Assembly (NCBI GenBank): GCA_965652545.1
Contig: CBFGWV010000128.1
Location: forward strand, 1-13,127
Length of the DNA stretch: 13,127 nucleotides
Direction: 5' to 3'
DNA from: an uncultured Candidatus Competibacteraceae bacterium
Lineage (GTDB): Bacteria; Pseudomonadota; Gammaproteobacteria; Competibacterales; Competibacteraceae
Below the pieces are notes generated by a model. That model was not told the DNA's origin, searched no databases, and saw only the letters and a list, made by a program, of their open reading frames with translations. Positions 1-10,764 of this stretch are shown here, one piece after another (position 1 is the stretch's first letter; every line of letters begins with the position of its first letter). Both the position numbers and the translations under genes were made by a program.

Positions 1-3000
1 CTAGTCCACCGGGTCCTCGGGCGAGAAGTTGCGCCGGGTTTCGGCATCCAGCCGAATATCCTTGAACGTGTCCTTGTCGAGCTGGCGCAGTGCCTTGAGC
101 ACGTTGTTGAGCGTATCCCAGATATCGTGATCCAGTCGCAGCTTGTGGCTCATGGCCCGCACGACCGGTAGCAGCGATGACTCGATGGTGTTGGCCAGGC
201 TGCCCAGCAGCAGCTCCACGCCGGGCACAGGGTGGACTTCCACCTGCGGCGGTGTCCTGGCCAGGACATCGACCGACTCCCGCAGCTGGCTGAGGATTTG
301 CTCGTCCACGGGCTTGGCGGCGGCTTTGTGGATGGCCTCGGCGATGTGGTCGACCTGGCCGCCGAGGAAGTTGAGCTGCGCAATCAACCGGCTGGTGGGG
401 TCGTCTTCGCCGCCCAGGGCCTGGCGGCGCACATAGCCTTTCTTGATCTGATCCCATCGCGCTTGCTGCTCGGGGGTGGCATTGCCGCGCAACTCGGCCA
501 GTTTGAGCAGGTTTTCTTCCGCACCGATGGTCAGGGTCTGCGCCTCGCCCACGTAGTGGTCGGTGACCAGCGCGTCCAGTTCGTCCTCGTTCATGGCCGC
601 GACGATCTTCTCCGCCAGTCGGTTCATGTTGCGGTAGGAGCCTTGCAGGCGGAACGGGGGCTCGGTGCGGTAGGCATCGTCCTGGGCGGCGGAGGCGATG
701 TACTGCTGGTTCACGGCCAGCAGCACCTGCTGCACCTTGAACAGGTGTTTGAGTACGGCGACGATCTCGTTGATCTCGGCCGTGGAGTAGTTGTGCCTCA
801 GTTCGCTGGATGCCACCTGCTCGCCGCGCGCCATGCGCACGAGCTTGTAGAAGTCGTCCATCTCGCGGGTGGCCAGCGGGGCCAGGGCGGCGTTGGAGGT
901 GAGCGTGTTCTCGATGTAGCTGAGGCGAAAGGCGTCCTCATGACCGCTGAGCACATCGCCCAGGTTGTAGACGTCGGCGCGGTTGGCCAGCATGTCAGGG
1001 ATCTTGAACGCCTCGCCGGATTCGGTGTACGGGTTGCCGGCCATGACCACGCAGAATTTCTTGCCGCGCAGGTCGTAGGTTTTCGCCCGCCCGCGCCACA
1101 CGCCCTCGATGCGTCGCTGGCCGTCGCACAGCGAGATGAACTTCTGCAACAGCTCGGGGCTCGAGTGCTGGATGTCATCCAGGATGAGCATCACGTTGTT
1201 GCCCATCTCCAGGGCGAGGTTGAGCTTCTCCAGCTCCTGGCGGGCGGCGGCGTTGGGCGCGGCAGCTGGGTCCAGCGAAGTCACCTCGTGGCCGATGGTC
1301 GGGCAGTTGACCTTCACGAACATCAGCCCCAGCCGGCTGGCGACGTACTCCATCAAGGTGGTCTTGCCGTAGCCCGGTGGGGAGATTACCAGCAGCAGGC
1401 CCATCAGGTCGGTGCGTTTGCCCGCGCCCGCGGCGCCCATCTGTTTGGCCAAGTTGTCGCCGACCAACGGCAGGTACAAGTCGTTGATCAGCTTGTTGCG
1501 TACGAAGGACGTGAGCGCTGTCGGCTTGAACTCGTGGATGCGCAGTTGCCGCTTCTCGCGCTCGATGATGGCGTGCTTGAGCGCGCGGGCTCGATGGAAG
1601 CCGGTGACCTGGACGTTGCGATGCTGCGCCAGGCGGGCGATGAACGTCGGCAGGCGCAGATGCAGGCTGCGCTCGTGGATCAGCGGATGCTGGCCCAGCA
1701 GGCCCTCGACCGTGGCGTCGACCACCGCATCGCTGATGCTGCGCTCCAGGCGCTCTCCGGTGACCAGCAGCACGGCGGCCTCGGGTATCACCGGCAGGAA
1801 CCGCGCCTGCTTGGAGGCCGAGGTCTGACGGACGAAGGCCTCCAGCCAGGCCTGGGCCAGGCGCAGGGCCTCACCGGGCAGGTCGGCCAACTCGCCCAGG
1901 CCCTTCTGGAGGGCATGGCGTTGGTTTTTGCCATCCAGGTGGTGCAGCAACTCGTCGGCGAGCTTGCGGGCCGCGCCGCTGAGCACGAAGTGCGGGTTCT
2001 CGGCCTGCAATTCCTCCGCCAGGTAACGCCCGGCCAGGGGTAGCTCGTCATCCCCAATGTCGATGCCATGGCGCTCGATGAAGCCGGCGAGCGCGGCGGT
2101 CAATTCCCGCCCCAGCGCTTCCAGGACATCGCCCTGGCCGAACACGCTCGTCAGGCGACCCAGGCTCTCGCCTTTGAGCGACCAGCGGCGGACTGAGGCG
2201 AGATCCTTGTTGCCGGCCCAGAAGAGCAGGGCGACGCTGCGCGGCAACGGGCCGTAACGCAGCAGCCCCGCGGTGTCGCGCAAGTGGATGAGTTTCTCGA
2301 GGATGCGCGCCGCGTCGTGGTCGTGCACGCCGCGCTCGTAGCCCTCGTCGTAACGGGCCTCGGCAAAGCGCTGCACCCGCTTGACCAGGCCGTCCTCTTC
2401 GAGCATGGCTTGGCGCAGGATGTCCATGCTCAGGTCGTCCTGCCCGGCTTCGGCGGCGGTCAGCACGCTGTCGGCCAGGTATTCGCCGCGGTACACGTGT
2501 GCCGTCTCCGACACCAGGGCCTGCTCCCAGAATGGGCGGGTGGCCTCCAGCTCCGGGTCGTCGATGGCCTCGAAATAGTCCGTGCCGGCAATGTGCAAGG
2601 CCAGGCCGTCGCCATGCGGCACCAGGGTGAGATCCGGCTCCTGCGTGTTGACGCTGAAGCGGTGACGGCCCAGGCGAATGAGGTTGCCGCCCTCCTCGTA
2701 GATGTCCAGCTTGTCGCGCAGGGCGCGGACCGCCTGGTCTTGGGCGGATTTGATGCGACCGGCGATATCCTCGGCGCGCACGCTTTCCTTCAGCGTGCGC
2801 AACTCCTCGACGATACCGCGCACTTTCAGCGCCATGGCGTCGGAGGCGAAAAAGCCGTTGAGTGCGTCGACCGAATCCAGTTGCTGGGCGCGGCGGGTCA
2901 GCCCTTGCAGAATGCGCTCGGCGGCCTTGGCCAGGTTCTGCGAGCGGCGTTGCTGGGCATCCAGCAACTGCTGCTTGCGGGTCTCGAATGCCTCGTAGAT

Positions 3001-5244
3001 CTCCTCCCGCTTGCCGGCCAGGTCGGCGGCAAACTGGTCGTGCTCGCCGAAACGGCCTTCCATCTCCTCCAGTTGCAGCAATAGCCGGGAGAGCTGGTCG
3101 TCGGCTTTGTCCGGTGTGTCCGCCGCGGCCAGGGCGCCGGTGACGCTTTGCCCCAGCAGGCGGAACTGGGCGCCGAACTCGGCCACGGACTCGCGCGCGC
3201 CAAGTGCTTTGCGCTTGAGGTCGGCGCCGGCCTTGGCCTGGTTGAGCCGGCCGAAGCAGTTGGAGATGCGATCGAGAATCTCGGCGCGGGCGGTTGCATC
3301 GTCCACTTGGAGCTCGTTGAGCACCTCGGTGAGCAGATTCAGCCCCTCGCCGATGGCGTCCAGCGCGCTCTGGATGGGCTTGAGATCGACCCGCCGCTCG
3401 ACTGTCTCCAGTGCCTGCGCCTGGGTGTCGATCTCGCTCAGATAGGGGGCGAGGGCAGCCTCGCCGAGCAGGAACTGCACCGTGTGTTCGCTGACGGTGC
3501 CGGTGGCCTCGATGACCTCGGCCTCCAGCGCCTCGACCTGTGCGATGTCGATATGACGCAGGTCCTTGAGCGAGATCAGCGTGCCACGCTGGCCGCGCAG
3601 GCGGGCGAGGGCCTGCACATAGCCGTCGATGCTGTCCCAATCGCCCCGCCGGGCCTGGCTGAGGATGTCGCGTTGCGCTGCCTGGGCCGCGTTGACGGCC
3701 TCCTGGGCGCGGCGGCGGATGCTCTCGACCTTCTCGAACTCATCAAGCACCTGCTCCGCGGTGGCGCGGATGGTCTTGAGGTCGTGTTCCAGCGCCTCGG
3801 CCGCTTCGCCGCCCAGCCAGTGGTAGGTGTCCAGCACCCGCGTGGCCGCCGCGATAAGGTCCTCATAGGTGCCGAGGCTGGGTCGCTGGGCCTCGATCAA
3901 CCGCGCCACCGAGTATACGTCGGAGATCGCCCGTACCAGCTCGGCATTGCCCAGCCGGGCCAGCGGCGAGCCGTCGGTGGGCTGTGCGGCGGCGTGTTCA
4001 TCACTGAAGAACGGCGTGCGCCACACCTGGAGGTTGTGCACCCGCGTGGGCTCGGCCTCGGCGCGGAACAGCACCATGTGCCCGTCGGCGAGTTGGGCGT
4101 AGCCGTTGGTCACCAGCGGGTTGGCCAACGCCTTGCGAATGAGGTTGTAGGAGAGCAGGACGAAGCGCCCGTCCACCTCGTGATAGAACACGTACAGCAC
4201 GTCCTCGCCGTTGGGCGAGCGGATCGTGCGCTTGTAGTGCATGCCGGCGACATCGGTGTCGAAGCGCTTGGTTTCGCCGGACTGGAGATAATAGCCACCC
4301 GGAAAGATGAGCCCGTGGTCCTCCGGTAACTGGATACACGCGGTGCCGATCTCGTCGATGCGGTCCACTTGGTGGGTGCGGGTGTTGAAGACAAAGTAGC
4401 GCGCCTGGCGCTCGCGGTAGGGCAGGATGCGCAGCACGATGAGCGTGCCGACCTGTGCGTACTGGATGTCGGCATCCTGCAAGGTCTGGTTACGGTCCTC
4501 CACCGGTTCGGTATACAGCCCCTCGCCGGTCTCGGTGTTGTCCTCGACCTTGATCGTCAGCGTGCCGCCCAGGCATTCGACGAAGACCGTATTGAGAATA
4601 TTGATGTGCGGGTGCTTGCCCAGGACGTGCTGTTCGCGCCCGGTGCGCTGCCATTCGAAATCGTGCGAGGCCGGCAGTACATTGTCCGCATTGCCACGGT
4701 CGTCGATGTAGCGCACGCCGCCATCGGGCGCCACCGCCCAGCGGAAGACCTTCAAATCATCGAAGGTACTGCCGGTCTGGAACACCGCCAGCAGCTTGCC
4801 GGTGATCCGCCGCAACTGCACCAGGCGGGCGTTCTTGTAGTACTTGTAGAGCTCGTGAAAGTCGCGGGTGAAGCCGGGGTCATCGAGAAAGCTGCCCTCG
4901 CGCTCCACCGCGTCGAGTTCCGGGCCAGTCTCGGTCAGGTTGAAGCGGTGCAGGGAGAAGACATCCGCGACCTGGGTTTCGGTCTTCAGGCCGATGAACA
5001 CGTTGTAGCCGAACAGCAGCAACTCGCCCACGGCGACGATATCGCGGGGCACACAGTTGTGCTCCGTGCGTACCCGCAGGCTGCCGGCCACGGCCAGCTC
5101 GGTGCTGCCGAAGGTCTCCAGGCGGCGGGCGTTGAGACGCTCGGCCTTGTGCTTCAGCCCGCTGCCCTGCGACTCGAGGCGCTTACGGATGATCTCGTAG
5201 GCGCCGCCGGCATCCAGTGTCTGATCCTGCTTCTCGTCGGCCAC
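1..5244 (-). CDS. Giant 1747-aa cytoplasmic protein translationally coupled to the flotillin gene. It has an N-terminal ~400-aa non-coiled domain, ~900 aa of coiled-coil/helical region and a C-terminal MoxR/AAA_5-like AAA+ ATPase module. Function unknown.
   Basis: A complete 5.2-kb ORF runs from a GTG start at 5244-5242 (with an AGGAG ribosome-binding site, RBS) to a TAG stop at 3-1. The first ~330 codons read by eye show strong GC3 codon bias, and the protein composition is non-degenerate. The P-loop ISPPGYGKTT sits at nt 1357-1386, and Walker B reads MLILDD at nt 1174-1191. A MoxR-like sensor-1/arginine-finger block reads VVMAGNPYTESGEAFKIPDMLANRADV. There is no signal peptide or TM segment. 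The product name is an inference from these motifs only. Confidence 0.85.
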   Translation of the reverse strand: MADEKQDQTLDAGGAYEIIRKRLESQGSGLKHKAERLNARRLETFGSTELAVAGSLRVRTEHNCVPRDIVAVGELLLFGYNVFIGLKTETQVADVFSLHRFNLTETGPELDAVEREGSFLDDPGFTRDFHELYKYYKNARLVQLRRITGKLLAVFQTGSTFDDLKVFRWAVAPDGGVRYIDDRGNADNVLPASHDFEWQRTGREQHVLGKHPHINILNTVFVECLGGTLTIKVEDNTETGEGLYTEPVEDRNQTLQDADIQYAQVGTLIVLRILPYRERQARYFVFNTRTHQVDRIDEIGTACIQLPEDHGLIFPGGYYLQSGETKRFDTDVAGMHYKRTIRSPNGEDVLYVFYHEVDGRFVLLSYNLIRKALANPLVTNGYAQLADGHMVLFRAEAEPTRVHNLQVWRTPFFSDEHAAAQPTDGSPLARLGNAELVRAISDVYSVARLIEAQRPSLGTYEDLIAAATRVLDTYHWLGGEAAEALEHDLKTIRATAEQVLDEFEKVESIRRRAQEAVNAAQAAQRDILSQARRGDWDSIDGYVQALARLRGQRGTLISLKDLRHIDIAQVEALEAEVIEATGTVSEHTVQFLLGEAALAPYLSEIDTQAQALETVERRVDLKPIQSALDAIGEGLNLLTEVLNELQVDDATARAEILDRISNCFGRLNQAKAGADLKRKALGARESVAEFGAQFRLLGQSVTGALAAADTPDKADDQLSRLLLQLEEMEGRFGEHDQFAADLAGKREEIYEAFETRKQQLLDAQQRRSQNLAKAAERILQGLTRRAQQLDSVDALNGFFASDAMALKVRGIVEELRTLKESVRAEDIAGRIKSAQDQAVRALRDKLDIYEEGGNLIRLGRHRFSVNTQEPDLTLVPHGDGLALHIAGTDYFEAIDDPELEATRPFWEQALVSETAHVYRGEYLADSVLTAAEAGQDDLSMDILRQAMLEEDGLVKRVQRFAEARYDEGYERGVHDHDAARILEKLIHLRDTAGLLRYGPLPRSVALLFWAGNKDLASVRRWSLKGESLGRLTSVFGQGDVLEALGRELTAALAGFIERHGIDIGDDELPLAGRYLAEELQAENPHFVLSGAARKLADELLHHLDGKNQRHALQKGLGELADLPGEALRLAQAWLEAFVRQTSASKQARFLPVIPEAAVLLVTGERLERSISDAVVDATVEGLLGQHPLIHERSLHLRLPTFIARLAQHRNVQVTGFHRARALKHAIIEREKRQLRIHEFKPTALTSFVRNKLINDLYLPLVGDNLAKQMGAAGAGKRTDLMGLLLVISPPGYGKTTLMEYVASRLGLMFVKVNCPTIGHEVTSLDPAAAPNAAARQELEKLNLALEMGNNVMLILDDIQHSSPELLQKFISLCDGQRRIEGVWRGRAKTYDLRGKKFCVVMAGNPYTESGEAFKIPDMLANRADVYNLGDVLSGHEDAFRLSYIENTLTSNAALAPLATREMDDFYKLVRMARGEQVASSELRHNYSTAEINEIVAVLKHLFKVQQVLLAVNQQYIASAAQDDAYRTEPPFRLQGSYRNMNRLAEKIVAAMNEDELDALVTDHYVGEAQTLTIGAEENLLKLAELRGNATPEQQARWDQIKKGYVRRQALGGEDDPTSRLIAQLNFLGGQVDHIAEAIHKAAAKPVDEQILSQLRESVDVLARTPPQVEVHPVPGVELLLGSLANTIESSLLPVVRAMSHKLRLDHDIWDTLNNVLKALRQLDKDTFKDIRLDAETRRNFSPEDPVD
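805..1500 (-). other. AAA+ ATPase module of the giant protein, MoxR/AAA_5-like (approx. aa 1250-1480)
   Basis: GPPGxGKT-type P-loop (SPPGYGKTT, Lys at nt 1363-1365). Walker B hhhhDD with the catalytic Glu replaced by Asp (nt 1174-1179). The block DDIQHSSPELLQKF parallels MoxR DEINRAPPKTQSAL. AGNP...TESGE...IPD..ANRAD parallels MoxR TQNP.EQEGTY.LPEAQLDRF. Domain boundaries are approximate. Confidence 0.6.
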
Positions 5245-5252
5245 CGCCGTTT

Positions 5253-5257
5253 CTCCT
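5253..5257 (-). promoter_or_regulatory. RBS (AGGAG) for the giant ATPase gene, overlapping the flotillin TAG stop. This indicates translational coupling.
   Basis: Minus-strand sequence reads TAG-GAG-AAACGGCG-GTG. AGGAG lies 8 nt upstream of the GTG start. The stop of the upstream gene and the start of this gene are 11 nt apart. Confidence 0.5.
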
Positions 5258-7442
5258 AGCCCAGACCGAGCTCTTTGGCTTTGGCGATGAGCCGGTTGAC
5301 CTTCTCGTTCTGGTTGGCGTCGCCATTGGCCAGCAGCTTGGCCAGTACGGCAGAGACCGTCAGGTTCTGCAGGTCGGCGCTGGAGAGCTTGGCGTTGGTC
5401 AGGATGTCCTTGATATCGGCCAGGATGTCCTTATCGCCACTGAGGTAGGGGCCGGCGACCTCTTGCACGACCTTGCTGTGGTTGACCACGGCATCCAGGG
5501 ATTTGCCGCTGGAGATGGCATTGACCATACGATCGAAGAAGGCGCCGTCGCCACCGACGATATTGATGTTGGCGCTCTTGAAGGCCTCGCCCAACACCTG
5601 GGCTTGTGCCTCGCCCAACTGGCGGTGGGCGTCCAGCGCGGACAGTTCGATCTCTTTCTGCTTCTCCAGTTGCAGGCGGAACTCCTCGTGCATCCGGCCG
5701 CCTTCATCCAGCCCGCTGATGGCCTGGAACTTCTCCTTGAGCCCTTGGCTCTCGGCCTTGTAGCGCTCGAGGATGGCGGACGCATCGGCGTGGCCACGCG
5801 CTTCGATGGCATCGGCTTCGGCACGCTGCACCTCCACCAGGGCCAGACCCTTGGCCTTCTCGCCCTCGGCGCCGGCGAGCAGGCCTTCCTTCTTGACCCG
5901 TGCCTCGGCGAAGCCTTTTTCCTGAATGACTTTGGCCTCGGCCTCCTGGACACGCACGCGGACCATGCCGCGCTCCTCTTCGCCCTTGGCCTGGGCATGC
6001 AGAGTTTCGTAAGTGACGTTGGCCTCGGCCTTGCCCTGCTTCTCGGCGGCCACGGCGAGCGCCTCTTTCACCCGCGCCTCGGCGAGGCCGGGGGCTGCGG
6101 TTTCGGCTTGGCTGCCCTCGGCCAGCACTTTCTTCGACTCGGCGAGCTTGGCGGAGGCCTCCAGTTCGGCCTCAGCCAGCGCGATACGCTTCTGCGCCTC
6201 GAAGCGGGCGGCCTTCTCGTCGGCCTCGGCGCGCTTGAGCTCCTTGACCAGGCCTTCCTCGGCCTCGGCCTCGGCGGCGGTCACCCGCACCTGCTTCTGC
6301 CGGCTGGCTTCGCTGATGGCACGGACTTCCTTGATCTTCTCTTCCTCGACCGCGACGGTCTTCTCCACCGCCACCCGCTCGCGCACCACATCGGCGATGG
6401 CTTTGCGCTCGACCTCCAGCGCCTTTTCCTTTTCGATGACCTTCAGCGCGACTTCCTTCTCACGGGCGACGATCTCGACCTGGCGGAAGCGATCGACCTC
6501 CTCTTGCTTGATGCCGAGGATCTTCAAGCGCTCCTGCTCGGTGACCTCCACCTCGCGCCGCTTGTTTTCTTCCTGGATCGCGATGTCCTGGTCGGCACGG
6601 ATGCGGGCGGTTTCCATGCGCAGGCGTTCTTCCTCGGAGACCAGCTTGGCCGCGGCCTGCTCGCGGGACTGCACGGTTTCGATTTCACGCCGCTGCTTGG
6701 CCTCGGCTTCGGCTTGCTGACGGTCGAGCGCGAGCACGGCCTCGCGCGCTTCGACATCCTGCTTGCGGATCTGCTTCTCTTCGTTGCGGCGGGCGTCATT
6801 GGCGGCCACGCGCTGGGTGGCGGTCAACTCGGTGATCTTGCGGATACCCTGGGCATCGAGGATGTTGGAGTCGTCCAACTGGGCGATGGGGGTTTGTTCC
6901 AGGTAATCGATGGCCACGTCTTCGAGGCTGTAGCCGTTGAGGTCATCGCCGACCATGCGCTTGATGGCATCGCGGAACGCATCGCGGGCCTGGTAGAGCT
7001 CCTCGAATTCCATCTGCTTGCCGACGGTCTTCAAGGCCTCAGCAAACTTGGCCGCGAAGAGGTCGTTCAGCGTCGTCTCGTCCGAGGCGCGGTTGCAGCC
7101 GATGGAGCCGGCCACCTTGCGCACCGCATCGACCGTCGGGTTGACGCGCACGAAGAAGTTCACCGAGATATCGCCGCGGATATTGTCCTTGCAGATCAGT
7201 CCGTCCTTACCGCGACGGTCGATCACCAGGCGCTTGACCGAGATGTCCATGATCTCGGCCTTGTGGATCACCGGTATGACGATTCGCCCGGTAAACGTGA
7301 CCACCGGCTCGGCCTTCATGGTGTTGACGATCAAGGCGGTGCCTTGTTCGACCTTGCGGAAGAACTTGGCGATCATGACCAGTACACCGATAAACAGGAC
7401 GAATGCAATAACCGCAATCAGCAATATCAATTCCACATTCAT
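5256..7442 (-). CDS. yqiK: Flotillin-like SPFH/band-7 protein of the YqiK family, 728 aa, with an extended C-terminal Glu/Ala-rich coiled-coil region
   Basis: N-terminal TM helix LILLIAVIAFVLFIGVLVMIAKFF is followed by an SPFH-like region (TFTGRIVIPVIHKAEIMDISVKRLVIDRRGKDGLICKDNIRGDISVNFFVRV...). A long EA/KQ-rich coiled coil of ~450 aa then follows. It sits directly downstream of an NfeD-like gene, as in E. coli yqiJK. The start is placed at the ATG at 7442-7440 because it has a strong RBS GAGGGAGG (7448-7455) with a 5-nt spacer. The ORF-track start at 7460 is a TTG with no RBS. Orthology to yqiK is not verified. Confidence 0.9.
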   Translation of the reverse strand: MNVELILLIAVIAFVLFIGVLVMIAKFFRKVEQGTALIVNTMKAEPVVTFTGRIVIPVIHKAEIMDISVKRLVIDRRGKDGLICKDNIRGDISVNFFVRVNPTVDAVRKVAGSIGCNRASDETTLNDLFAAKFAEALKTVGKQMEFEELYQARDAFRDAIKRMVGDDLNGYSLEDVAIDYLEQTPIAQLDDSNILDAQGIRKITELTATQRVAANDARRNEEKQIRKQDVEAREAVLALDRQQAEAEAKQRREIETVQSREQAAAKLVSEEERLRMETARIRADQDIAIQEENKRREVEVTEQERLKILGIKQEEVDRFRQVEIVAREKEVALKVIEKEKALEVERKAIADVVRERVAVEKTVAVEEEKIKEVRAISEASRQKQVRVTAAEAEAEEGLVKELKRAEADEKAARFEAQKRIALAEAELEASAKLAESKKVLAEGSQAETAAPGLAEARVKEALAVAAEKQGKAEANVTYETLHAQAKGEEERGMVRVRVQEAEAKVIQEKGFAEARVKKEGLLAGAEGEKAKGLALVEVQRAEADAIEARGHADASAILERYKAESQGLKEKFQAISGLDEGGRMHEEFRLQLEKQKEIELSALDAHRQLGEAQAQVLGEAFKSANINIVGGDGAFFDRMVNAISSGKSLDAVVNHSKVVQEVAGPYLSGDKDILADIKDILTNAKLSSADLQNLTVSAVLAKLLANGDANQNEKVNRLIAKAKELGLG

Positions 7443-7447
7443 GACGA

Positions 7448-7455
7448 CCTCCCTC
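7448..7455 (-). promoter_or_regulatory. RBS (GAGGGAGG) for the flotillin gene
   Basis: Minus-strand sequence reads GAGGGAGG-TCGTC-ATG. There is a 44-nt gap to the stop of the upstream NfeD-like gene, so the two genes are co-transcribed. Confidence 0.55.
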
Positions 7456-7486
7456 GACAAAAAGAATTTATTGAATCCGGTTGCGC

Positions 7487-8113
7487 CTACAGGACCGACA
7501 TGTCGATCGTGTGCGCGGTGATCAGGTAGCGGTCCCTGGCGTTGTCGTAGTCGACGATCAACGCGGTGTCGCCTTTGCTCAGTGGTGCTTTGTTGCTGTA
7601 GACGCGCAACACCAGCTCGGTACCGCGGTCGGCTACCCGCGCCTCACCCCAGGTGTCATCCACCGCGGTGCTGGAAACCACGCAGATCCGGCCGACCAGC
7701 TCGCGATTGCTCAAGGCATGGCCTTGCTGCACGAACAGTCGCCGCAAGGGGTGCACGCTCAGCCGTGTCAGCGCGATCGACCCCAGCAGCGCGCCGACCA
7801 GGACCGCAAGGCCCAGCGGATAGCGCAGCGCGTCGTCGAAACCGGCAAGCAGGTTGAGCGAGACGAGGCTGGTGATCACCCAGGCCCAGAACACCAGCAG
7901 GGTGAAGACGATGGGCAGGGGAACGCCCTTGAGACCCAGCGCCGAAAGCAGGCCGGCTGCGCTGCCCAGGCTCCCGTCGACGTCCACGTCGACATCCAGA
8001 TCGAAATCCGCGAAGCCGATGATGACCAGCAGCCAGTACAGCAGGCACAGCACCATGAGCACGGAGTACAGCGCTGTGGGAAAGCTGAAAAGCATCGAGA
8101 AAAGCGCAGCCAT
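7487..8113 (-). CDS. yqiJ: YqiJ/NfeD-like inner-membrane protein (208 aa). It has three predicted TM helices and a C-terminal OB-fold (NfeD short-form) domain, and is the partner of the flotillin.
   Basis: Start ATG is at 8113-8111 with RBS GGAG (8119-8122) and a 5-nt spacer. The ORF-track extension to 8281 has no RBS and encodes Arg-rich junk. Hydrophobic helices are MLFSFPTALYSVLMVLCLLYWLLVIIGF, PLPIVFTLLVFWAWVITSLVSLNLL and LGLAVLVGALLGSIALTRL. The C-terminus LVGRICVVSSTAVDDTWGEARVADRGTELVLRVYSNKAPLSKGDTALIVDYDNARDRYLIT matches the NfeD beta-barrel pattern G..G.V....G.V.V..G...KG..V.V. Its length is ~209 aa like E. coli YqiJ, and it lies upstream of the flotillin. Confidence 0.8.
   Translation of the reverse strand: MAALFSMLFSFPTALYSVLMVLCLLYWLLVIIGFADFDLDVDVDVDGSLGSAAGLLSALGLKGVPLPIVFTLLVFWAWVITSLVSLNLLAGFDDALRYPLGLAVLVGALLGSIALTRLSVHPLRRLFVQQGHALSNRELVGRICVVSSTAVDDTWGEARVADRGTELVLRVYSNKAPLSKGDTALIVDYDNARDRYLITAHTIDMSVL
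7976..8008 (-). other. Alternating acidic motif DFDLDVDVDVD between TM1 and TM2 of the YqiJ-like protein
   Basis: Read directly from the sequence: the reverse complement of 7976-8008 reads gatttcgatctggatgtcgacgtggacgtcgac. Confidence 0.7.
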
Positions 8114-8395
8114 GATTGCTCCGTACCGGTAGACGAAAGTCGTAATCGCGCGCGGCCGATTACTGCCTGGGAGGACGAATGGAGCGTCCCGCAAGGGCAA
8201 GTAACAAGCGCCGGATAATGCCGATGGTCGGAGCGTAGGGCCGAAAATGCATTTGTCTTTTCGCAAATACGCGATGGCCAAACCACCGCGGCATTTTCGT
8301 GCTTGGCCCGAATGCTACGAAACTGTTCCAGAATGCGCAAGCTCGGTACCGTATGGTGCGAAGGCGGCCCCTGCCGGCCGCGTAGGGAGGCAACG
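8114..8395. promoter_or_regulatory. Divergent intergenic region that presumably holds the promoters of the flotillin operon (leftward) and the DUF2254 gene (rightward). It contains the dyad GCATTTG-N8-CAAATAC at ~8249-8270.
   Basis: This is the longest non-coding stretch in the window (282 bp) and sits between divergently oriented starts. Its GC content is visibly lower than that of the flanking coding DNA. No convincing sigma70 -35/-10 pair or sigma54 -24/-12 element was found by eye. Confidence 0.35.
8385..8390 (+). promoter_or_regulatory. RBS (GGGAGG) for the DUF2254 gene
   Basis: The sequence reads gggagg-caacg-ATG. Confidence 0.55.
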
Positions 8396-9682
8396 ATGGC
8401 CCCAGTGAGTCTGCTGACCGATCGGTTGCGCACCAGCCTGTGGTTCGTTCCGGTGATCATGGTTGTCGCCTCGGCACTGCTTGCCGCATTGCTGCTGTGG
8501 CTGGACGGGTTTCTGGGCGCGCTATGGCAGGGCGGCTGGCTCTCGCGCCTGCTTGGCGGCCTGGGCAGCGACCGGGCGACCGGCATGCTGCAGGCGATTG
8601 CCGGGTCGATGATCACAGTGGTCGCGCTGGTCTGCACCCTGACGACGGCGGCGATCAGCCAGGCCAGTGCGCAGTACACATCGCGGGTACTGCGCAGCTA
8701 CCTGCGCGACCGGATCACCCAGGCCGTGCTCGGGGCGCTGGTGGGGGTGTTCGTGTACTGCCTGCTGGTGTTCGGTGCCATATCCACTGATGGCGAACCG
8801 GCGGTGCTGGCCGTCCTGGGCGCCGTTTTGCTGACGTTGTTCGCCGTCTCGTTGCTGGTGTATTTCGTCCATCACATCGCTCGCTCTTTGCAGGCCTCGA
8901 GCATGGCCGAGGCCATCGCGCTGGAGACCCAGGCGGCGGTGAACCGGCTCTATCCGCCGGACGGCCGGTCGGGCCCGCAAGACGGGCCGGCTCTCATGGC
9001 GCCAGTGCATACGGTTCGGGCGCACTACAGCGGCTACGTGGAAATCTTCGACCACACGGCACTGTGCGAACTGGCGCGGGAGCTCAAGACGGTCATCCAT
9101 GTCCGCCGCGCTGTGGGCGAGTTCATCACCGCCGGTGATGAGATCCTTACCCTGTGCGGGGGCGATGCGCCGGATGAGACACAGGCCGCGCGCCTGGCGC
9201 GGGTCGCGGTGCTGGGTGCCGAGCCGACGCTGGAGCAGGATGTCGGCTTCGGCATTCGCCAGTTGGTGGATGTCGCGCTCAAGGCCTTGTCGCCGGGCGT
9301 CAATGAAACCACCACGGCGATTATCTGCATCGATTGGTTGGGGGTCATTCTGCGTGAGCTCGCCGAGCGGCCGTTTCCGTCGCCCCGGCTCGAAGAGGAC
9401 GGCGAGCTGCGGGCAGTGCTCACCAAACCGGCCTTCAGTGACCACCTGGCGGCGGGGTTCAACCAGATCCGCCAGAGCGCAGCGAGCAATGTCGCGGTCA
9501 TGGTGCGGCTGCTCGATGTGCTGGGCGGCATGGTCGACGCGGCCATGCAACACGATCGCCAGAGCGCGTTGACTGCCCAGATCGATGCCCTGGAGGCACT
9601 TGCCGAGCGCACGATCCACTGGCCGCCCGATCGCGAGCCGGTCATGGCGCGCGTCGCCCGGCTGCGCGAGCGTCTGGGTTAG
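8396..9682 (+). CDS. DUF2254-family predicted membrane protein (428 aa). It has ~4 N-terminal TM helices and a C-terminal soluble domain. Function unknown.
   Basis: ATG at 8396 has an excellent RBS GGGAGG (8385-8390) with a 5-nt spacer. The ORF-track start at 8303 adds an Arg/Cys-rich N-terminus with no RBS. The N-terminus LRTSLWFVPVIMVVASALLAALLLWL and later helices are hydrophobic. Conserved-looking blocks TLEQDVGFGIRQLVDVALKALSPGVNETTTAI and IDWLG resemble what I recall of the DUF2254 (PF10011) signature. That recollection is not verified. Confidence 0.75.
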   Translation: MAPVSLLTDRLRTSLWFVPVIMVVASALLAALLLWLDGFLGALWQGGWLSRLLGGLGSDRATGMLQAIAGSMITVVALVCTLTTAAISQASAQYTSRVLRSYLRDRITQAVLGALVGVFVYCLLVFGAISTDGEPAVLAVLGAVLLTLFAVSLLVYFVHHIARSLQASSMAEAIALETQAAVNRLYPPDGRSGPQDGPALMAPVHTVRAHYSGYVEIFDHTALCELARELKTVIHVRRAVGEFITAGDEILTLCGGDAPDETQAARLARVAVLGAEPTLEQDVGFGIRQLVDVALKALSPGVNETTTAIICIDWLGVILRELAERPFPSPRLEEDGELRAVLTKPAFSDHLAAGFNQIRQSAASNVAVMVRLLDVLGGMVDAAMQHDRQSALTAQIDALEALAERTIHWPPDREPVMARVARLRERLG

Positions 9683-9789
9683 CCAAAAACTTTTTCGAGC
9701 GCGCGCTGCCAACAGGCAAGGACCTGTTGCCCGGGACTCGATGTGGAATGGATCATCCGCACGCGGCTGCTGCCGTGTTCACGCCGCCT

Positions 9790-10764
9790 ATGAACGGTGC
9801 CCGCCTGTCAGTGGCACTCTGCTGCGTGTTGACCGGTTGTGGTGGAGTACAGTCCGCCCTGGCCCCGGCTGGCCGCCAGGCCGACGAGGTGGCGACGCTG
9901 TTCTGGGCGATGTTGATCGCGGCGGCCGCGATCTGGCTGCTGGTGATCGCCGGCGCCCATTGGGCCTTGCGTGCCGACCCGGCGCGCTATGGGGAACGCG
10001 CAGCGGGGTGGATCATCATCGGCGGGGGCGTCGTCTTTCCGGTGACTGTTCTCGCCGCTCTGCTCACCTATGGCCTGAGCCTGCTGTCGCAGGCCGACGC
10101 CGAGCCGGCACTGACGGTGCGGGTGAGCGGCGAGCAGTGGTGGTGGCGTATCGGCTATGTGCATGAGGCGTTCGATGCGCCAATCGAGAGCGCCAACGAG
10201 ATCCGCGTGCCCGCCGGCCGGCCGGTGGCGTTCGAGCTCGATAGCCCCGATGTGATCCATTCGTTCTGGATCCCCTCGCTGGGGGGCAAGCTGGACATGA
10301 TCCCGGGGCGTACCAACCGGCTGGTGCTGACGCCGTTGGAACCGGGCCGTTATCGCGGCGTGTGCGCCGAGTTCTGCGGTACCGCCCATGCCCTGATGGC
10401 GTTCGACGTGGTGGTCATGCCGTCACGGGATTTTACGCGTTGGTTGCGCGCCCAAGCCGCGCCGGCACACGAGGCCTCGGACGAGCCGGCCAGACGCGGC
10501 CGCGAGTTGTTCCACAGCACCGGCTGCGCGGCCTGCCACACCGTTCGCGGGCACACCGAGACCGGGCGGGTGGGGCCGGACCTGACCCATGTCGGGACGC
10601 GTGCCTCGCTGGGTGCCGGCACTCTGCCCAACACCCGCGACAACCTCACGCAATGGATCGCCTCGCCGCAGGCCATCAAGCCCGGTGCCCTCATGCCCGC
10701 GTTCGCCATGCTGGCGCAGGAAGAGATCGACGCCCTGGCCGCCTACCTGGCCGGTTTGGAATGA
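9790..10764 (+). CDS. coxB: Cytochrome c oxidase subunit II with a fused C-terminal mono-haem cytochrome c domain (caa3-type subunit IIc). It is a probable lipoprotein.
   Basis: The CuA centre motif HSFWIPSLGGK...CAEFCGTAHALM lies at nt 10363-10398. The haem c motif CAACH lies at 10525-10539. There are two TM helices before the cupredoxin domain. The start is uncertain. ATG 9790 gives a classic lipoprotein signal MNGARLSVALCCVLTGC (lipobox LTGC) but has no Shine-Dalgarno (SD) sequence. Alternative starts are ATG 9748 and TTG 9727, which has AAGGA 4 nt upstream. The stop TGA at 10762-10764 overlaps the coxA ATG. Confidence 0.9.
   Translation: MNGARLSVALCCVLTGCGGVQSALAPAGRQADEVATLFWAMLIAAAAIWLLVIAGAHWALRADPARYGERAAGWIIIGGGVVFPVTVLAALLTYGLSLLSQADAEPALTVRVSGEQWWWRIGYVHEAFDAPIESANEIRVPAGRPVAFELDSPDVIHSFWIPSLGGKLDMIPGRTNRLVLTPLEPGRYRGVCAEFCGTAHALMAFDVVVMPSRDFTRWLRAQAAPAHEASDEPARRGRELFHSTGCAACHTVRGHTETGRVGPDLTHVGTRASLGAGTLPNTRDNLTQWIASPQAIKPGALMPAFAMLAQEEIDALAAYLAGLE
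10525..10539 (+). other. CXXCH haem c attachment motif (CAACH) in the C-terminal domain of subunit II
   Basis: The sequence reads tgc gcg gcc tgc cac, in frame with coxB. Confidence 0.8.

What the first reader, a model, noticed from the sequence alone, without database searches (positions are those of the whole stretch)
1..8113. NfeD-flotillin operon extended by a translationally coupled giant coiled-coil AAA+ ATPase: a candidate uncharacterised three-component membrane system
The sequence shows three same-strand genes with 44-nt and 11-nt gaps. The RBS for gene 3 overlaps the stop codon of gene 2. The order is a YqiJ/NfeD-like membrane protein, then a YqiK-type flotillin, then a 1747-aa soluble protein. 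That third protein has a unique N-terminal domain, ~900 aa of coiled coil and a MoxR/AAA_5-type AAA+ module. From established knowledge, the NfeD-SPFH pair is an ancient two-gene operon (E. coli yqiJK, B. subtilis yuaFG/floT), and the function of bacterial flotillins is still debated. I am not aware of any functional description of the giant ATPase partner. The tight coupling implies stoichiometric co-production. The architecture is an AAA+ ring on a long coiled-coil stalk, which loosely recalls dynein/midasin-like mechanochemical devices, or Vps4 acting on ESCRT-III scaffolds. This suggests ATP-driven assembly, disassembly or remodelling of flotillin microdomains, in membrane stress repair or possibly a phage/stress-defence role. 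I have a vague and unverifiable memory that proteins of this architecture get generic auto-annotations such as 'DNA repair ATPase', which would not reflect real knowledge.
Basis: partly seen in the sequence, partly recalled or inferred. Interest (0 to 1): 0.85.

Follow-up and report, generated by a model that had tools for sequence, protein, structure and literature searches.

The report
Flotillin operon with giant AAA+ ATPase
A membrane-anchor protein, a flotillin scaffold protein and a 1747-residue ATPase form a gene trio conserved across many bacterial phyla; a 2024 comparative-genomics paper already described it as a partner of the PspA membrane-repair system, but nobody has tested what it does.

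Summary
Three intact minus-strand genes lie at 8113-7487, 7442-5256 and 5244-1, with 44-nt and 11-nt gaps. The AGGAG for gene 3 overlaps the TAG of gene 2.

- **g1** is a remote YqiJ-family protein with three transmembrane segments.
- **g2** is a YqiK-type flotillin.
- **g3** is a soluble protein made of a beta-propeller (Pfam DUF3686), about 430 aa of segmented helices (including DUF7902), an unmatched domain of about 375 aa, and one AAA+ module.

The linkage is very strong. g2 sits directly upstream of g3 in 81 of 81 testable loci from at least six phyla. Searching from g2 instead, g3 follows in 60 of 67 loci.

The system is not newly discovered. Ravi et al. (mSystems 2024) described exactly this operon, usually joined to a CesT/Tir-like gene plus PspA. 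Here that pair lies just beyond the window edge.

No experiment exists. The label "DNA repair ATPase" has no support, and I found no defence-system or phage link.

The most likely role is an ATP-driven remodeller of a cytoplasmic flotillin scaffold, working in envelope-stress repair alongside PspA. This mechanism is inferred, not shown.

I rate it a new member of a known, computationally described kind, with moderate interest.

The parts
7487..8113 (-). g1: 208-aa membrane protein with three hydrophobic segments (residues 14-32, 68-86, 102-120), an Asp-rich loop (residues 36-47) and a beta-rich C-terminal domain. It is a remote member of the YqiJ (DUF1449) family.
   Evidence: ORF, start and SD. 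Hydropathy. Profile of 24 homologues against E. coli YqiJ: hhalign probability 94%, E=1.3e-7 over 135 columns. Pfam finds nothing for the window protein, and YqiJ_N hits only 1 of 24 homologues. NCBI labels the Hymenobacter homologue DUF1449.
5256..7442 (-). g2: 728-aa YqiK-type flotillin. It has an N-terminal membrane helix (residues 6-24), an SPFH/Band_7 domain (about residues 30-180), a Glu/Ala/Lys/Arg/Gln-rich helical region (about 216-590) and a C-terminal region (591-728).
   Evidence: Band_7 E=8e-11 on residues 1-214. BLASTP against E. coli YqiK: 28% identity over 453 aa, E=4e-40. Hydropathy and composition. Homologues are about 50% identical across phyla.
1..5244 (-). g3: 1747-aa soluble giant ATPase (GTG start at 5244, stop at 3-1). 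Public databases label the family 'DNA repair ATPase', 'AAA family ATPase' or 'MoxR-like ATPase'.
   Evidence: No transmembrane segment was found.
4009..5244 (-). g3 residues 1-412: an N-terminal helix (15-45) followed by a beta-propeller (strands 51-409). This is Pfam DUF3686.
   Evidence: PF12458 E=3.4e-205. AF2 pLDDT is about 90. Foldseek PDB hits are generic propellers such as prolyl oligopeptidase, WD40 and sialidase.
2701..4002 (-). g3 residues 415-848: helical stalk of 13 helices (longest 58 aa). It includes DUF7902 (residues 597-679, window 3208-3456).
   Evidence: AF2 secondary structure. PF25472 E=1.9e-23.
1540..2682 (-). g3 residues 855-1235: a small beta unit followed by a mostly alpha middle domain. 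It carries the invariant motif E967-G-Y-x-x-G-x-H974-D975-x-D977. No family or fold match was found.
385..1527 (-). g3 residues 1240-1620: a single AAA+ module with conserved C-terminal helices. Walker A is SPPGYGKT (1288-1295). Walker B is LILDD (1353-1357), with Asp in place of the usual Glu. N1404 and R1422 are invariant. A beta-hairpin lies before the fourth core strand.
5253..5257 (-). AGGAG Shine-Dalgarno sequence for g3. It overlaps the TAG stop of g2 (5258-5256) and lies 8 nt before the GTG.
7448..7452 (-). GGAGG Shine-Dalgarno sequence for g2, 5 nt before the ATG at 7442.

Best explanation
**What it is (shown).** The trio is one conserved, co-inherited operon module.
- g1 is a three-pass YqiJ-family membrane protein. 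Its C-terminal domain is predicted to face the cytoplasm.
- g2 is a long YqiK-type flotillin anchored by one N-terminal helix. Its SPFH and helical regions are predicted to be cytoplasmic: the residues KFFRK follow the helix, which fits the positive-inside rule.
- g3 is a soluble protein of about 1750 aa. Its order is beta-propeller, segmented helical stalk, unmatched middle domain, then one AAA+ module.

This is the PspA-less ('abbreviated') layout of the operon that Ravi et al. 2024 described as CesT/Tir-PspA-YqiJ-flotillin-AAA+. In this genome the CesT/Tir-like and PspA genes sit immediately past the g3 stop on the other strand.

**How it most likely works (inferred).**
1. g2, helped by g1, assembles an SPFH/flotillin cage or microdomain on the cytoplasmic face of the inner membrane. 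Solved SPFH complexes (QmcA-YbbJ, HflK/C, Flot1/2) do this.
2. g3 oligomerises through its AAA+ module.
3. Its stalks hold the propellers out as binding modules for the flotillin scaffold or its clients.
4. ATP binding and hydrolysis then assemble, disassemble or turn over the scaffold.
5. This happens during envelope stress, in cooperation with PspA-type (ESCRT-III-like) membrane repair.

My confidence that the module is real, conserved and membrane-associated is about 0.95. The figure below is for the flotillin-remodeller mechanism.
For: **Synteny.**
- g2 lies directly upstream of g3 on the same strand in 81/81 testable loci. The loci come from Gamma-, Beta- and Zetaproteobacteria, Myxococcota, Actinomycetota, Acidobacteriota, Planctomycetota and Bacteroidota.
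- g1 lies upstream of g2 in 76/76 loci.
- Gaps larger than 500 nt, where examined, hold unrelated inserted genes.
- In the reverse sample anchored on g2, 60/67 loci have g3 downstream and 68/69 have g1 upstream.

**Co-inheritance.** Pairwise-identity matrices correlate at r=0.92 for g2-g3, 0.87 for g1-g3 and 0.82 for g1-g2. None of 500 permutations reached these values.

**Partner specificity.** g3 always comes with the flotillin, but PspA is adjacent in only 31-45% of loci.

**Membrane context.** Recurrent neighbours are PspA/IM30, the CesT/Tir-like DUF2170, rhomboid protease, a PLD-like hydrolase and TelA.

**Domains.** Band_7 and YqiK homology are.

**Constraint.** g3 is 50-58% identical across phyla over about 1750 aa. 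The propeller family collapses into only 759 clusters at 50% identity.

**Literature.** Ravi et al. 2024 made the same contextual inference. A 2025 review states that the role of Band-7 partners is undetermined and that no Vps4-like ATPase is known in bacteria.
Against: - No experiment of any kind exists for any member, and no physical interaction was tested here.
- The AAA+ module lacks an obvious aromatic pore loop. The stretch after the second strand reads GPxxGHxVTS. The catalytic Walker B Glu is an invariant Asp. It may therefore be a slow switch rather than a processive unfoldase.
- About 10% of flotillins in the g2 subfamily have no adjacent g3.
- The best-studied flotillins (E. coli YqiK, B. 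subtilis FloT) work without such an ATPase. No match was found in 5,426 complete E. coli genomes.
- The C-terminal extension of g2, a candidate docking site, is absent from several homologues.
- The mirror-tree correlation is confounded by shared ancestry.
Confidence: 0.45

Rival explanations
1. g3 is a functional analogue of Vps4. Its real substrate would be the PspA/IM30 (ESCRT-III-type) polymer, and the flotillin and YqiJ proteins would act only as the membrane platform that recruits both.
For: A CesT/Tir-like plus PspA pair is fused directly upstream of g1 in 26/83 genome loci and is present in 36/80 metagenome loci. It is adjacent in the window's own contig, in pQBR103 and in a Bacteroidota plasmid. 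Ravi et al. propose ATP-dependent, ESCRT-like remodelling. A 2025 review says no disassembly ATPase is known for bacterial PspA.
Against: - More than half of the loci lack an adjacent PspA, whereas the flotillin is essentially always present.
- No Pfam match, and so no MIT domain, was found in g3 outside the DUF3686, DUF7902 and P-loop/AAA regions.
Confidence: 0.2
2. The trio is a membrane-protein quality-control device built like HflK/C-FtsH or prohibitin with the m-AAA protease. The SPFH cage would corral client membrane proteins or damaged lipid patches. g3 would extract or remodel the clients for separately encoded hydrolases.
For: Known SPFH cages partner with an AAA+ machine (HflK/C-FtsH; established knowledge, and cited). 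Rhomboid protease (9 loci) and a PLD-like hydrolase (10 loci) recur immediately downstream of g3.
Against: g3 has no protease domain. Most loci have no linked hydrolase. The pore loop is not canonical.
Confidence: 0.12
3. g3 is a nucleotide-gated structural tether or scaffold, not a remodeller. It would link flotillin domains to another cellular structure, with ATP acting as an assembly switch.
For: The Walker B Glu is replaced by Asp in every homologue examined. The protein has long helical spacers and a terminal propeller, as many tethers do.
Against: The sensor-1 Asn and the arginine are invariant, which argues for retained hydrolysis. No second binding partner is conserved in the neighbourhoods.
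Confidence: 0.1
4. The trio is an anti-phage or abortive-infection system acting at the membrane.
For: The distribution within genera is patchy. The trio is carried on the megaplasmid pQBR103 and on other large plasmids. Similar identity levels across phyla suggest horizontal transfer.
Against: - No PADLOC family matches apart from a trivial P-loop hit.
- No match in 50,697 phage records.
- No nuclease or toxin effector is present.
- Sequence conservation is unusually high for a defence gene.
- The neighbours are membrane-stress genes, not defence islands.
Confidence: 0.06
5. g3 is a DNA repair ATPase of the SMC/Rad50/SbcC type, as the database name suggests.
For: Only the inherited names: 'ATPase involved in DNA repair' for Pfam DUF3686 and 'DNA repair ATPase' in NCBI records.
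Against: - The N-terminus is a beta-propeller with no P-loop.
- The single P-loop, at residue 1288, belongs to an AAA+ fold and not to a split ABC head.
- No nuclease partner is present.
- The obligate partners are membrane proteins.
- The name probably comes from coiled-coil similarity. That is my inference.
Confidence: 0.02

Closest known systems
CesT/Tir-PspA-YqiJ/YuaF-flotillin-AAA+ operon described by Ravi, Anantharaman et al., mSystems 2024 (PMC11237479; example Dokdonia donghaensis ANH61663.1)
   Same: [quoted passage not shown] The paper also notes abbreviated operons without PspA and an occasional PLD/HKD gene.
   Different: Here the CesT/Tir-like and PspA pair (plus a conserved 110-aa ORF) is not upstream. 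It lies inverted just past the g3 stop. The paper gives no counts, no structure model, no mention of the middle domain and no experiments.
E. coli yqiJ-yqiK and B. subtilis yuaF-floT (NfeD-type protein plus flotillin pairs)
   Same: The two-gene core is the same. g2 is 28% identical to YqiK over 453 aa (E=4e-40). The g1 profile matches YqiJ at 94% probability.
   Different: No ATPase gene follows yqiK in E. coli, and no match to the AAA+ region was found in 5,426 complete E. coli genomes. The g2 subfamily is longer (630-790 aa against 553 aa). Its members are about 50% identical to each other but only 26-28% identical to YqiK.
HflK/C-FtsH and prohibitin with the m-AAA protease (SPFH cage plus AAA+ machine)
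   Same: An SPFH-family scaffold is genetically or physically coupled to an AAA+ ATPase at the membrane.
   Different: FtsH is a membrane-anchored classical AAA protease, and the HflK/C cage is periplasmic. g3 is soluble, has no protease domain, and its AAA+ module is of another type. No homology is implied.
Vps4 with ESCRT-III (CdvC/CdvB in archaea)
   Same: There is a genomic association of an AAA+ ATPase with an ESCRT-III-superfamily protein (PspA) in a third to a half of loci.
   Different: g3 shows no Pfam MIT match and no classical aromatic pore loop. Its domain order is different, and PspA is dispensable for the linkage.
MoxR-family AAA+ ATPases (NorQ, CbbQ, RavA) and AAA_5 proteins (midasin, dynein)
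   Different: The margin over ClpA, ClpB and p97 is small. The sequence profile prefers the P-loop region of NVL, Rix7 and p97. No VWA-domain partner is called in this contig. MoxR proteins are about 300 aa, not 1750 aa.

Membership tests
SPFH / Band_7 (PF01145) | Sequence match to the SPFH domain model above Pfam's threshold | tested here: met
   g2 residues 1-214 score 42.7 bits against a cutoff of 23.6, E=8e-11. The full-length protein gives no hit, probably because its compositionally biased helical region suppresses the match.
Flotillin (YqiK/FloT type) | N-terminal membrane anchor, an SPFH domain, a long Glu/Ala-rich helical flotillin region, and homology to a named flotillin | tested here: met
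   One hydrophobic helix at residues 6-24. Residues 216-590 are 63% E/A/K/R/Q. BLASTP against E. coli YqiK gives E=4e-40 over residues 2-440. No Pfam model other than Band_7 (on the N-terminal 214 aa) matched g2.
YqiJ / DUF1449 (NfeD-like partner of flotillins) | Sequence membership in the YqiJ or NfeD Pfam models | tested here: not met
   No Pfam hit for g1 even at E<=10. Only 1 of 24 homologues hits YqiJ_N.
YqiJ / DUF1449 (NfeD-like partner of flotillins) | Remote homology to E. coli YqiJ, a multi-pass N-terminal part with a soluble C-terminal domain, and a gene position directly upstream of a flotillin | tested here: met
   hhalign probability 94%, E=1.3e-7 over 135 columns. Three hydrophobic segments. 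g1 lies upstream of g2 in 76/76 and 68/69 loci. The OB fold of the C-terminal domain was not modelled.
AAA+ ATPase | Walker A, Walker B, sensor-1 and an arginine, within an AAA+ alpha/beta fold followed by a lid | tested here: met
MoxR subfamily of AAA+ | Closest to MoxR proteins specifically, and paired with a VWA-domain partner | tested here: inconclusive
   NorQ and CbbQ rank first, but only 0.2-0.6 Z units above ClpA. The sequence profile favours the P-loop region of NVL and p97. No VWA gene is among the called genes of L001. Other loci were not scanned for VWA.
DUF3686 (PF12458) / DUF7902 (PF25472) giant ATPase family | Matches to both Pfam models in the N-terminal half, with a C-terminal AAA+ module and a length of about 1600-2000 aa | tested here: met
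   E=3.4e-205 and E=1.9e-23. The same domain set appears in all 120 listed homologues. Full-length representatives are 1550-2036 aa.
Vps4 / classical-clade AAA | N-terminal MIT domain, an aromatic pore loop 1, and no beta-hairpin before sensor 1 | tested here: not met
   No Pfam MIT match. The loop reads GPxxGHxVTS. A hairpin at about residues 1378-1391 precedes the fourth strand in the model.
SMC/Rad50/SbcC-type 'DNA repair ATPase' | Split ABC head: Walker A at the N-terminus, signature motif and Walker B at the C-terminus, joined by an antiparallel coiled coil | tested here: not met
   The only P-loop is at residue 1288, inside an AAA+ fold. The N-terminus is a propeller.
Known anti-phage defence systems (PADLOC-DB v2) | A match of any of the three proteins to a defence-system model | tested here: not met
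   The only match is a 34-residue P-loop hit to IetA at E=0.0046. NCBIfam IteA scores 17 bits against a cutoff of 510.

The most novel reading that the evidence does not exclude
g3 is the missing ATP-driven motor for bacterial membrane scaffolds. It would be a non-Vps4 AAA+ machine whose propeller-tipped arms grip flotillin cages, PspA (ESCRT-III-type) polymers, or both, and disassemble or reshape them. That would make it the first dedicated remodeller of an SPFH or flotillin assembly in any organism. It would also answer how bacteria recycle ESCRT-III-like polymers without Vps4.
Probability: 0.3. Interest if true: 0.85.

Novelty: new member of a known kind. Interest (0 to 1): 0.5.

Why it matters
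The function of bacterial flotillins is still debated. A 2025 review states that bacteria appear to lack a Vps4-like ATPase for PspA-type polymers, and that the role of Band-7 partners is undetermined.

This trio offers a concrete handle on both questions. It contains an enzyme, so it is easy to mutate and assay. That enzyme is essentially inseparable from one flotillin subfamily across at least six phyla, and it is often fused to a PspA operon. The trio occurs in hosts that can be grown and manipulated, including Stenotrophomonas maltophilia, Proteus mirabilis, Myxococcus, Xenorhabdus and P. fluorescens SBW25 carrying pQBR103.

The idea itself is already published as a comparative-genomics prediction. 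What this analysis adds:
- counts for how strong the linkage is;
- a domain map that includes an unmatched, highly conserved middle domain;
- the Walker B Asp variant;
- the argument that the flotillin, not PspA, is the obligate partner.

It also shows that the widespread database name 'DNA repair ATPase' is unfounded.

Tried and rejected
- **Pfam, NCBIfam and PADLOC on the full-length proteins.** Nothing was found for g1 or g2, and only P-loop noise for g3 in NCBIfam and PADLOC. The Band_7 domain appeared only after truncating g2.
- **PDB sequence searches.** I used g2, g3 and profiles A1, A4 and A6. Only matches around the Walker A region came up, and nothing matched g1.
- **Literature.** 'DUF3686' and 'DUF7902' occur in no paper of the library. 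No paper pairs 'DNA repair ATPase' with flotillin or PspA. No paper pairs 'bacterial flotillin' with MoxR. The P. aeruginosa PA14 SPFH survey does not include this operon. Popp et al. 2022 do not mention the ATPase.
- **Phage and E. coli searches.** No matches.
- **Insertions between the genes in outlier loci.** Among those examined are a PDDEXK_2 transposase, a NYN-domain protein, surface proteins and a zinc-ribbon protein. I rejected them as additional components.
- **Loci of the g2 subfamily without g3.** The downstream genes are unrelated (kinase, trypsin-like protease, EPSP synthase, TsaD), so there is no alternative ATPase partner.
- **The HD-like motif in the middle domain.** I considered a phosphohydrolase site, but I have no supporting match and did not pursue it.

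Full report
**1. The observation**

The window carries three consecutive minus-strand genes.
- g1 runs from the ATG at 8113 to the TAG at 7489-7487 (208 aa).
- g2 runs from the ATG at 7442 to the TAG at 5258-5256 (728 aa).
- g3 runs from the GTG at 5244 to the stop at 3-1 (1747 aa).

The intergenic gaps are 44 nt and 11 nt. An AGGAG at 5257-5253 overlaps the stop codon of g2 and lies 8 nt before the GTG of g3. g2 and g1 have GGAGG and GGAG sequences 5 nt before their ATGs. A near-identical metagenome contig (L001, 99.82% identity over 12,224 nt) carries the same three gene calls. No terminator-like site lies on the coding strand between the genes. g3 is a genuine single gene: more than 100 homologues of 1738-2024 aa align over 93-100% of its length.

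**2. What the proteins are**

*g2.* The full-length protein hits no Pfam model. Its first 214 residues alone match Band_7/SPFH (E=8e-11). The whole protein is 28% identical to the E. coli flotillin YqiK over 453 residues (E=4e-40). It has one N-terminal hydrophobic helix (residues 6-24), followed by KFFRK, and then a region of 375 residues that is 63% E/A/K/R/Q.

*g1.* It hits no Pfam model. It has three hydrophobic segments. A profile of 24 homologues matches E. coli YqiJ with 94% probability. NCBI labels a Bacteroidota homologue DUF1449. I therefore treat g1 as a remote YqiJ-family member and not as a demonstrated NfeD.

*g3.* It has no membrane segment. It matches Pfam DUF3686 (residues 30-475, E=3e-205) and DUF7902 (residues 597-679). 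It also matches AAA and AAA_5 just above their thresholds (residues 1284-1407).

AlphaFold models were built with 35 homologues, giving mean pLDDT of 83.7 and 77.1. They show the following parts:
- a helix at residues 15-45;
- a beta-propeller at residues 51-409;
- thirteen helices spanning residues 415-848, the longest 58 residues;
- a small beta unit at residues 855-893;
- a mostly alpha domain at about residues 870-1235, with pLDDT above 90;
- an AAA+ core and lid at about residues 1283-1620;
- a low-confidence tail.

The protein has a single P-loop, SPPGYGKT. Walker B is LILDD, and the second acidic residue is Asp in every homologue examined. N1404 and R1422 are invariant. The middle domain has no Pfam or fold match. 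It carries the invariant motif E967-G-Y-x-x-G-x-H-D-x-D.

**3. Conservation of the linkage**

I examined the best 80. They come from Pseudomonas, Stenotrophomonas, Xanthomonas and Lysobacter, Xenorhabdus, Comamonas, Pseudoalteromonas, Methylomonas, Zetaproteobacteria, Myxococcota, many Actinomycetota, Acidobacteriota and Planctomycetota. With three further loci (L001, pQBR103 and a Hymenobacter plasmid) the results are as follows:
- g2 lies upstream of g3 on the same strand in 81 of 81 loci that have upstream sequence;
- g1 lies upstream of g2 in 76 of 76 loci;
- the median g2-g3 gap is 92 nt, and it is 150 nt or less in 59 loci;
- overlapping or nearly abutting genes, as in the window, occur mostly in Actinomycetota and Myxococcota;
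- gaps over 500 nt, where examined, hold unrelated inserted genes.

*Sample anchored on g2.* In 80 metagenome loci, g3 follows in 60 of 67 testable cases and g1 precedes in 68 of 69. The seven loci without g3 have unrelated downstream genes.

*Co-inheritance.* Pairwise-identity matrices of the three proteins correlate at r=0.82-0.92, above all 500 permutations. This shows co-inheritance as a unit. It does not prove physical contact.

*Family size and spread.* The family is large but compact. More than 5,500 clusters at 90% identity collapse to 759 clusters at 50% identity for the propeller domain. E. coli yqiJK has no such third gene. No match to the AAA+ region was found in 5,426 complete E. 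coli genomes.

**4. The wider system**

In L001, three genes lie 40 nt past the g3 stop on the other strand: a 110-aa ORF, a PspA/IM30 gene and a DUF2170 gene. In 26 of 83 genome loci and 36 of 80 metagenome loci, a DUF2170/YjfI plus PspA pair is adjacent. It is usually directly upstream of g1 on the same strand. Examples are the megaplasmid pQBR103 and a Hymenobacter plasmid.

Other recurrent neighbours are a rhomboid protease (9 loci), a PLD-like hydrolase (10 loci) and TelA (9 loci). All are membrane-related.

**5. What is already known**

Ravi, Anantharaman and colleagues (mSystems 2024; bioRxiv 2020) describe this operon. They list the CesT/Tir-PspA dyad combined with three proteins:
[quoted passage not shown] - a 3TM YqiJ/YuaF protein.

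They note a PLD gene in some Proteobacteria. They also note 'abbreviated operons' without PspA that are more widely distributed. They infer ESCRT-like membrane dynamics. Their Table S3 lists 'Betapropeller+Coiled-coil+AAA-ATPase'.

I found no experimental study. DUF3686 and DUF7902 appear in no paper of the library. A 2025 review still calls the Band-7 partnership undetermined and says a Vps4-like ATPase appears absent from bacteria.

**6. Mechanism**

*Shown.* The module is conserved and co-inherited. It consists of two membrane proteins plus a soluble AAA+ protein, set in a membrane-stress gene context.

*Inferred.*
1. g2, with g1, forms a cytoplasmic SPFH cage or microdomain. This is by analogy with the solved QmcA-YbbJ, HflK/C and Flot1/2 assemblies, from established knowledge and the papers cited.
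2. g3 oligomerises through its AAA+ module.
3. g3 uses its propeller, stalk and middle domain to engage the scaffold.
4. ATP then drives assembly, disassembly or turnover of the scaffold during envelope stress, alongside PspA.

I favour the flotillin as the direct partner because it is essentially always linked to g3, whereas PspA is linked in less than half of the loci.

*Caveats.* There is no canonical aromatic pore loop. Walker B is Asp-Asp, so g3 may be a slow switch rather than a threading unfoldase.

*Rivals.* These are a Vps4-like action on PspA (0.2), client quality control like HflKC-FtsH (0.12), a nucleotide-gated tether (0.1), phage defence (0.06) and DNA repair (0.02). The architecture contradicts DNA repair. 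Defence has no positive evidence.

**7. Verdict**

The families, the conserved linkage and the absence of functional data all hold. However, the system is already described in the comparative-genomics literature. It is commonly larger than three genes. The coiled coil is about half the length claimed, the N-terminal domain is a catalogued propeller, and tight translational coupling is not general.

I classify it as a new member of a known, computationally defined kind. Interest is moderate (0.5). It is a good and tractable experimental target for two open questions, but it is not a new discovery.

Noticed in passing
L001 12263-13868 (the contig continues past window position 1, on the opposite strand to g3): A 110-aa ORF with no Pfam match, a PspA/IM30 gene and a DUF2170 (YjfI, CesT/Tir-like) gene lie immediately beyond the g3 stop. 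The window edge therefore cuts off part of the likely system. Homologues of the 110-aa ORF sit between PspA and g1 in L009, L067 and L070, and after g3 in L026. It may be a sixth component.
   Followed up: partly
window 1540-2682 (-), g3 residues 855-1235: This is the best-predicted part of g3 (pLDDT above 90). It has no Pfam match and no PDB fold match. It carries the invariant motif E967-G-Y-x-x-G-x-H974-D975-x-D977, which could be a metal-binding or catalytic site.
   Followed up: partly
window 1174-1188 (-), g3 residues 1353-1357: Walker B reads LILDD. The position of the usual catalytic Glu is an invariant Asp in all homologues aligned. This hints at slow or regulated ATP hydrolysis.
   Followed up: no
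window 7973-8008 (-), g1 residues 36-47: The loop after the first membrane segment is Asp-rich (DFDLDVDVDVDG). In homologues it is expanded into variable Asp/His/Gly-rich repeats, for example HVNMHGHVDAHVHLDADVD in L020. It may bind cations.
   Followed up: no
window 5256-7442 (-): Full-length g2 gives no Pfam hit at all, even at E<=10. The Band_7 domain is found only when the N-terminal 214 aa are scanned alone. This probably explains the 'hypothetical protein' labels on some homologues, for example in the Hymenobacter plasmid.
   Followed up: yes
L002 15175-16464; L022 15198-16955; other loci listed: Genes that recur just downstream of g3 in other genomes are a rhomboid protease (9 loci), a PLD-like HKD hydrolase (10 loci) and TelA (9 loci, e.g. 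L022, L027, L028).
   Followed up: partly
L082 (pQBR103, NC_009444.1 84437-97641): The Pseudomonas megaplasmid pQBR103 carries one same-strand run of yjfI, pspA(yjfJ), a rhomboid gene, DUF2491, DUF350, DUF1190, a glutathionylspermidine-synthase-like gene, g1, g2 and g3. This joins the polyamine-linked PspA operon to the flotillin-ATPase trio.
   Followed up: no
window 8303-13127 (+): Upstream of g1 and divergently oriented lies a DUF2254 membrane-protein gene (about 8303-9682). It is followed by a cytochrome c oxidase subunit II gene with a fused cytochrome c domain (about 9727-10764) and the start of a further gene, not identified here. None of these recurs next to the trio in other genomes.
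   Followed up: partly
g3 family as a whole: Identity to the window protein is about 50-58% whether the homologue comes from Gammaproteobacteria, Myxococcota, Actinomycetota or Acidobacteriota. Across 75 loci the mean pairwise identity is 52% and the minimum is 40%. This implies either very strong constraint over about 1750 residues or extensive horizontal transfer.
   Followed up: no
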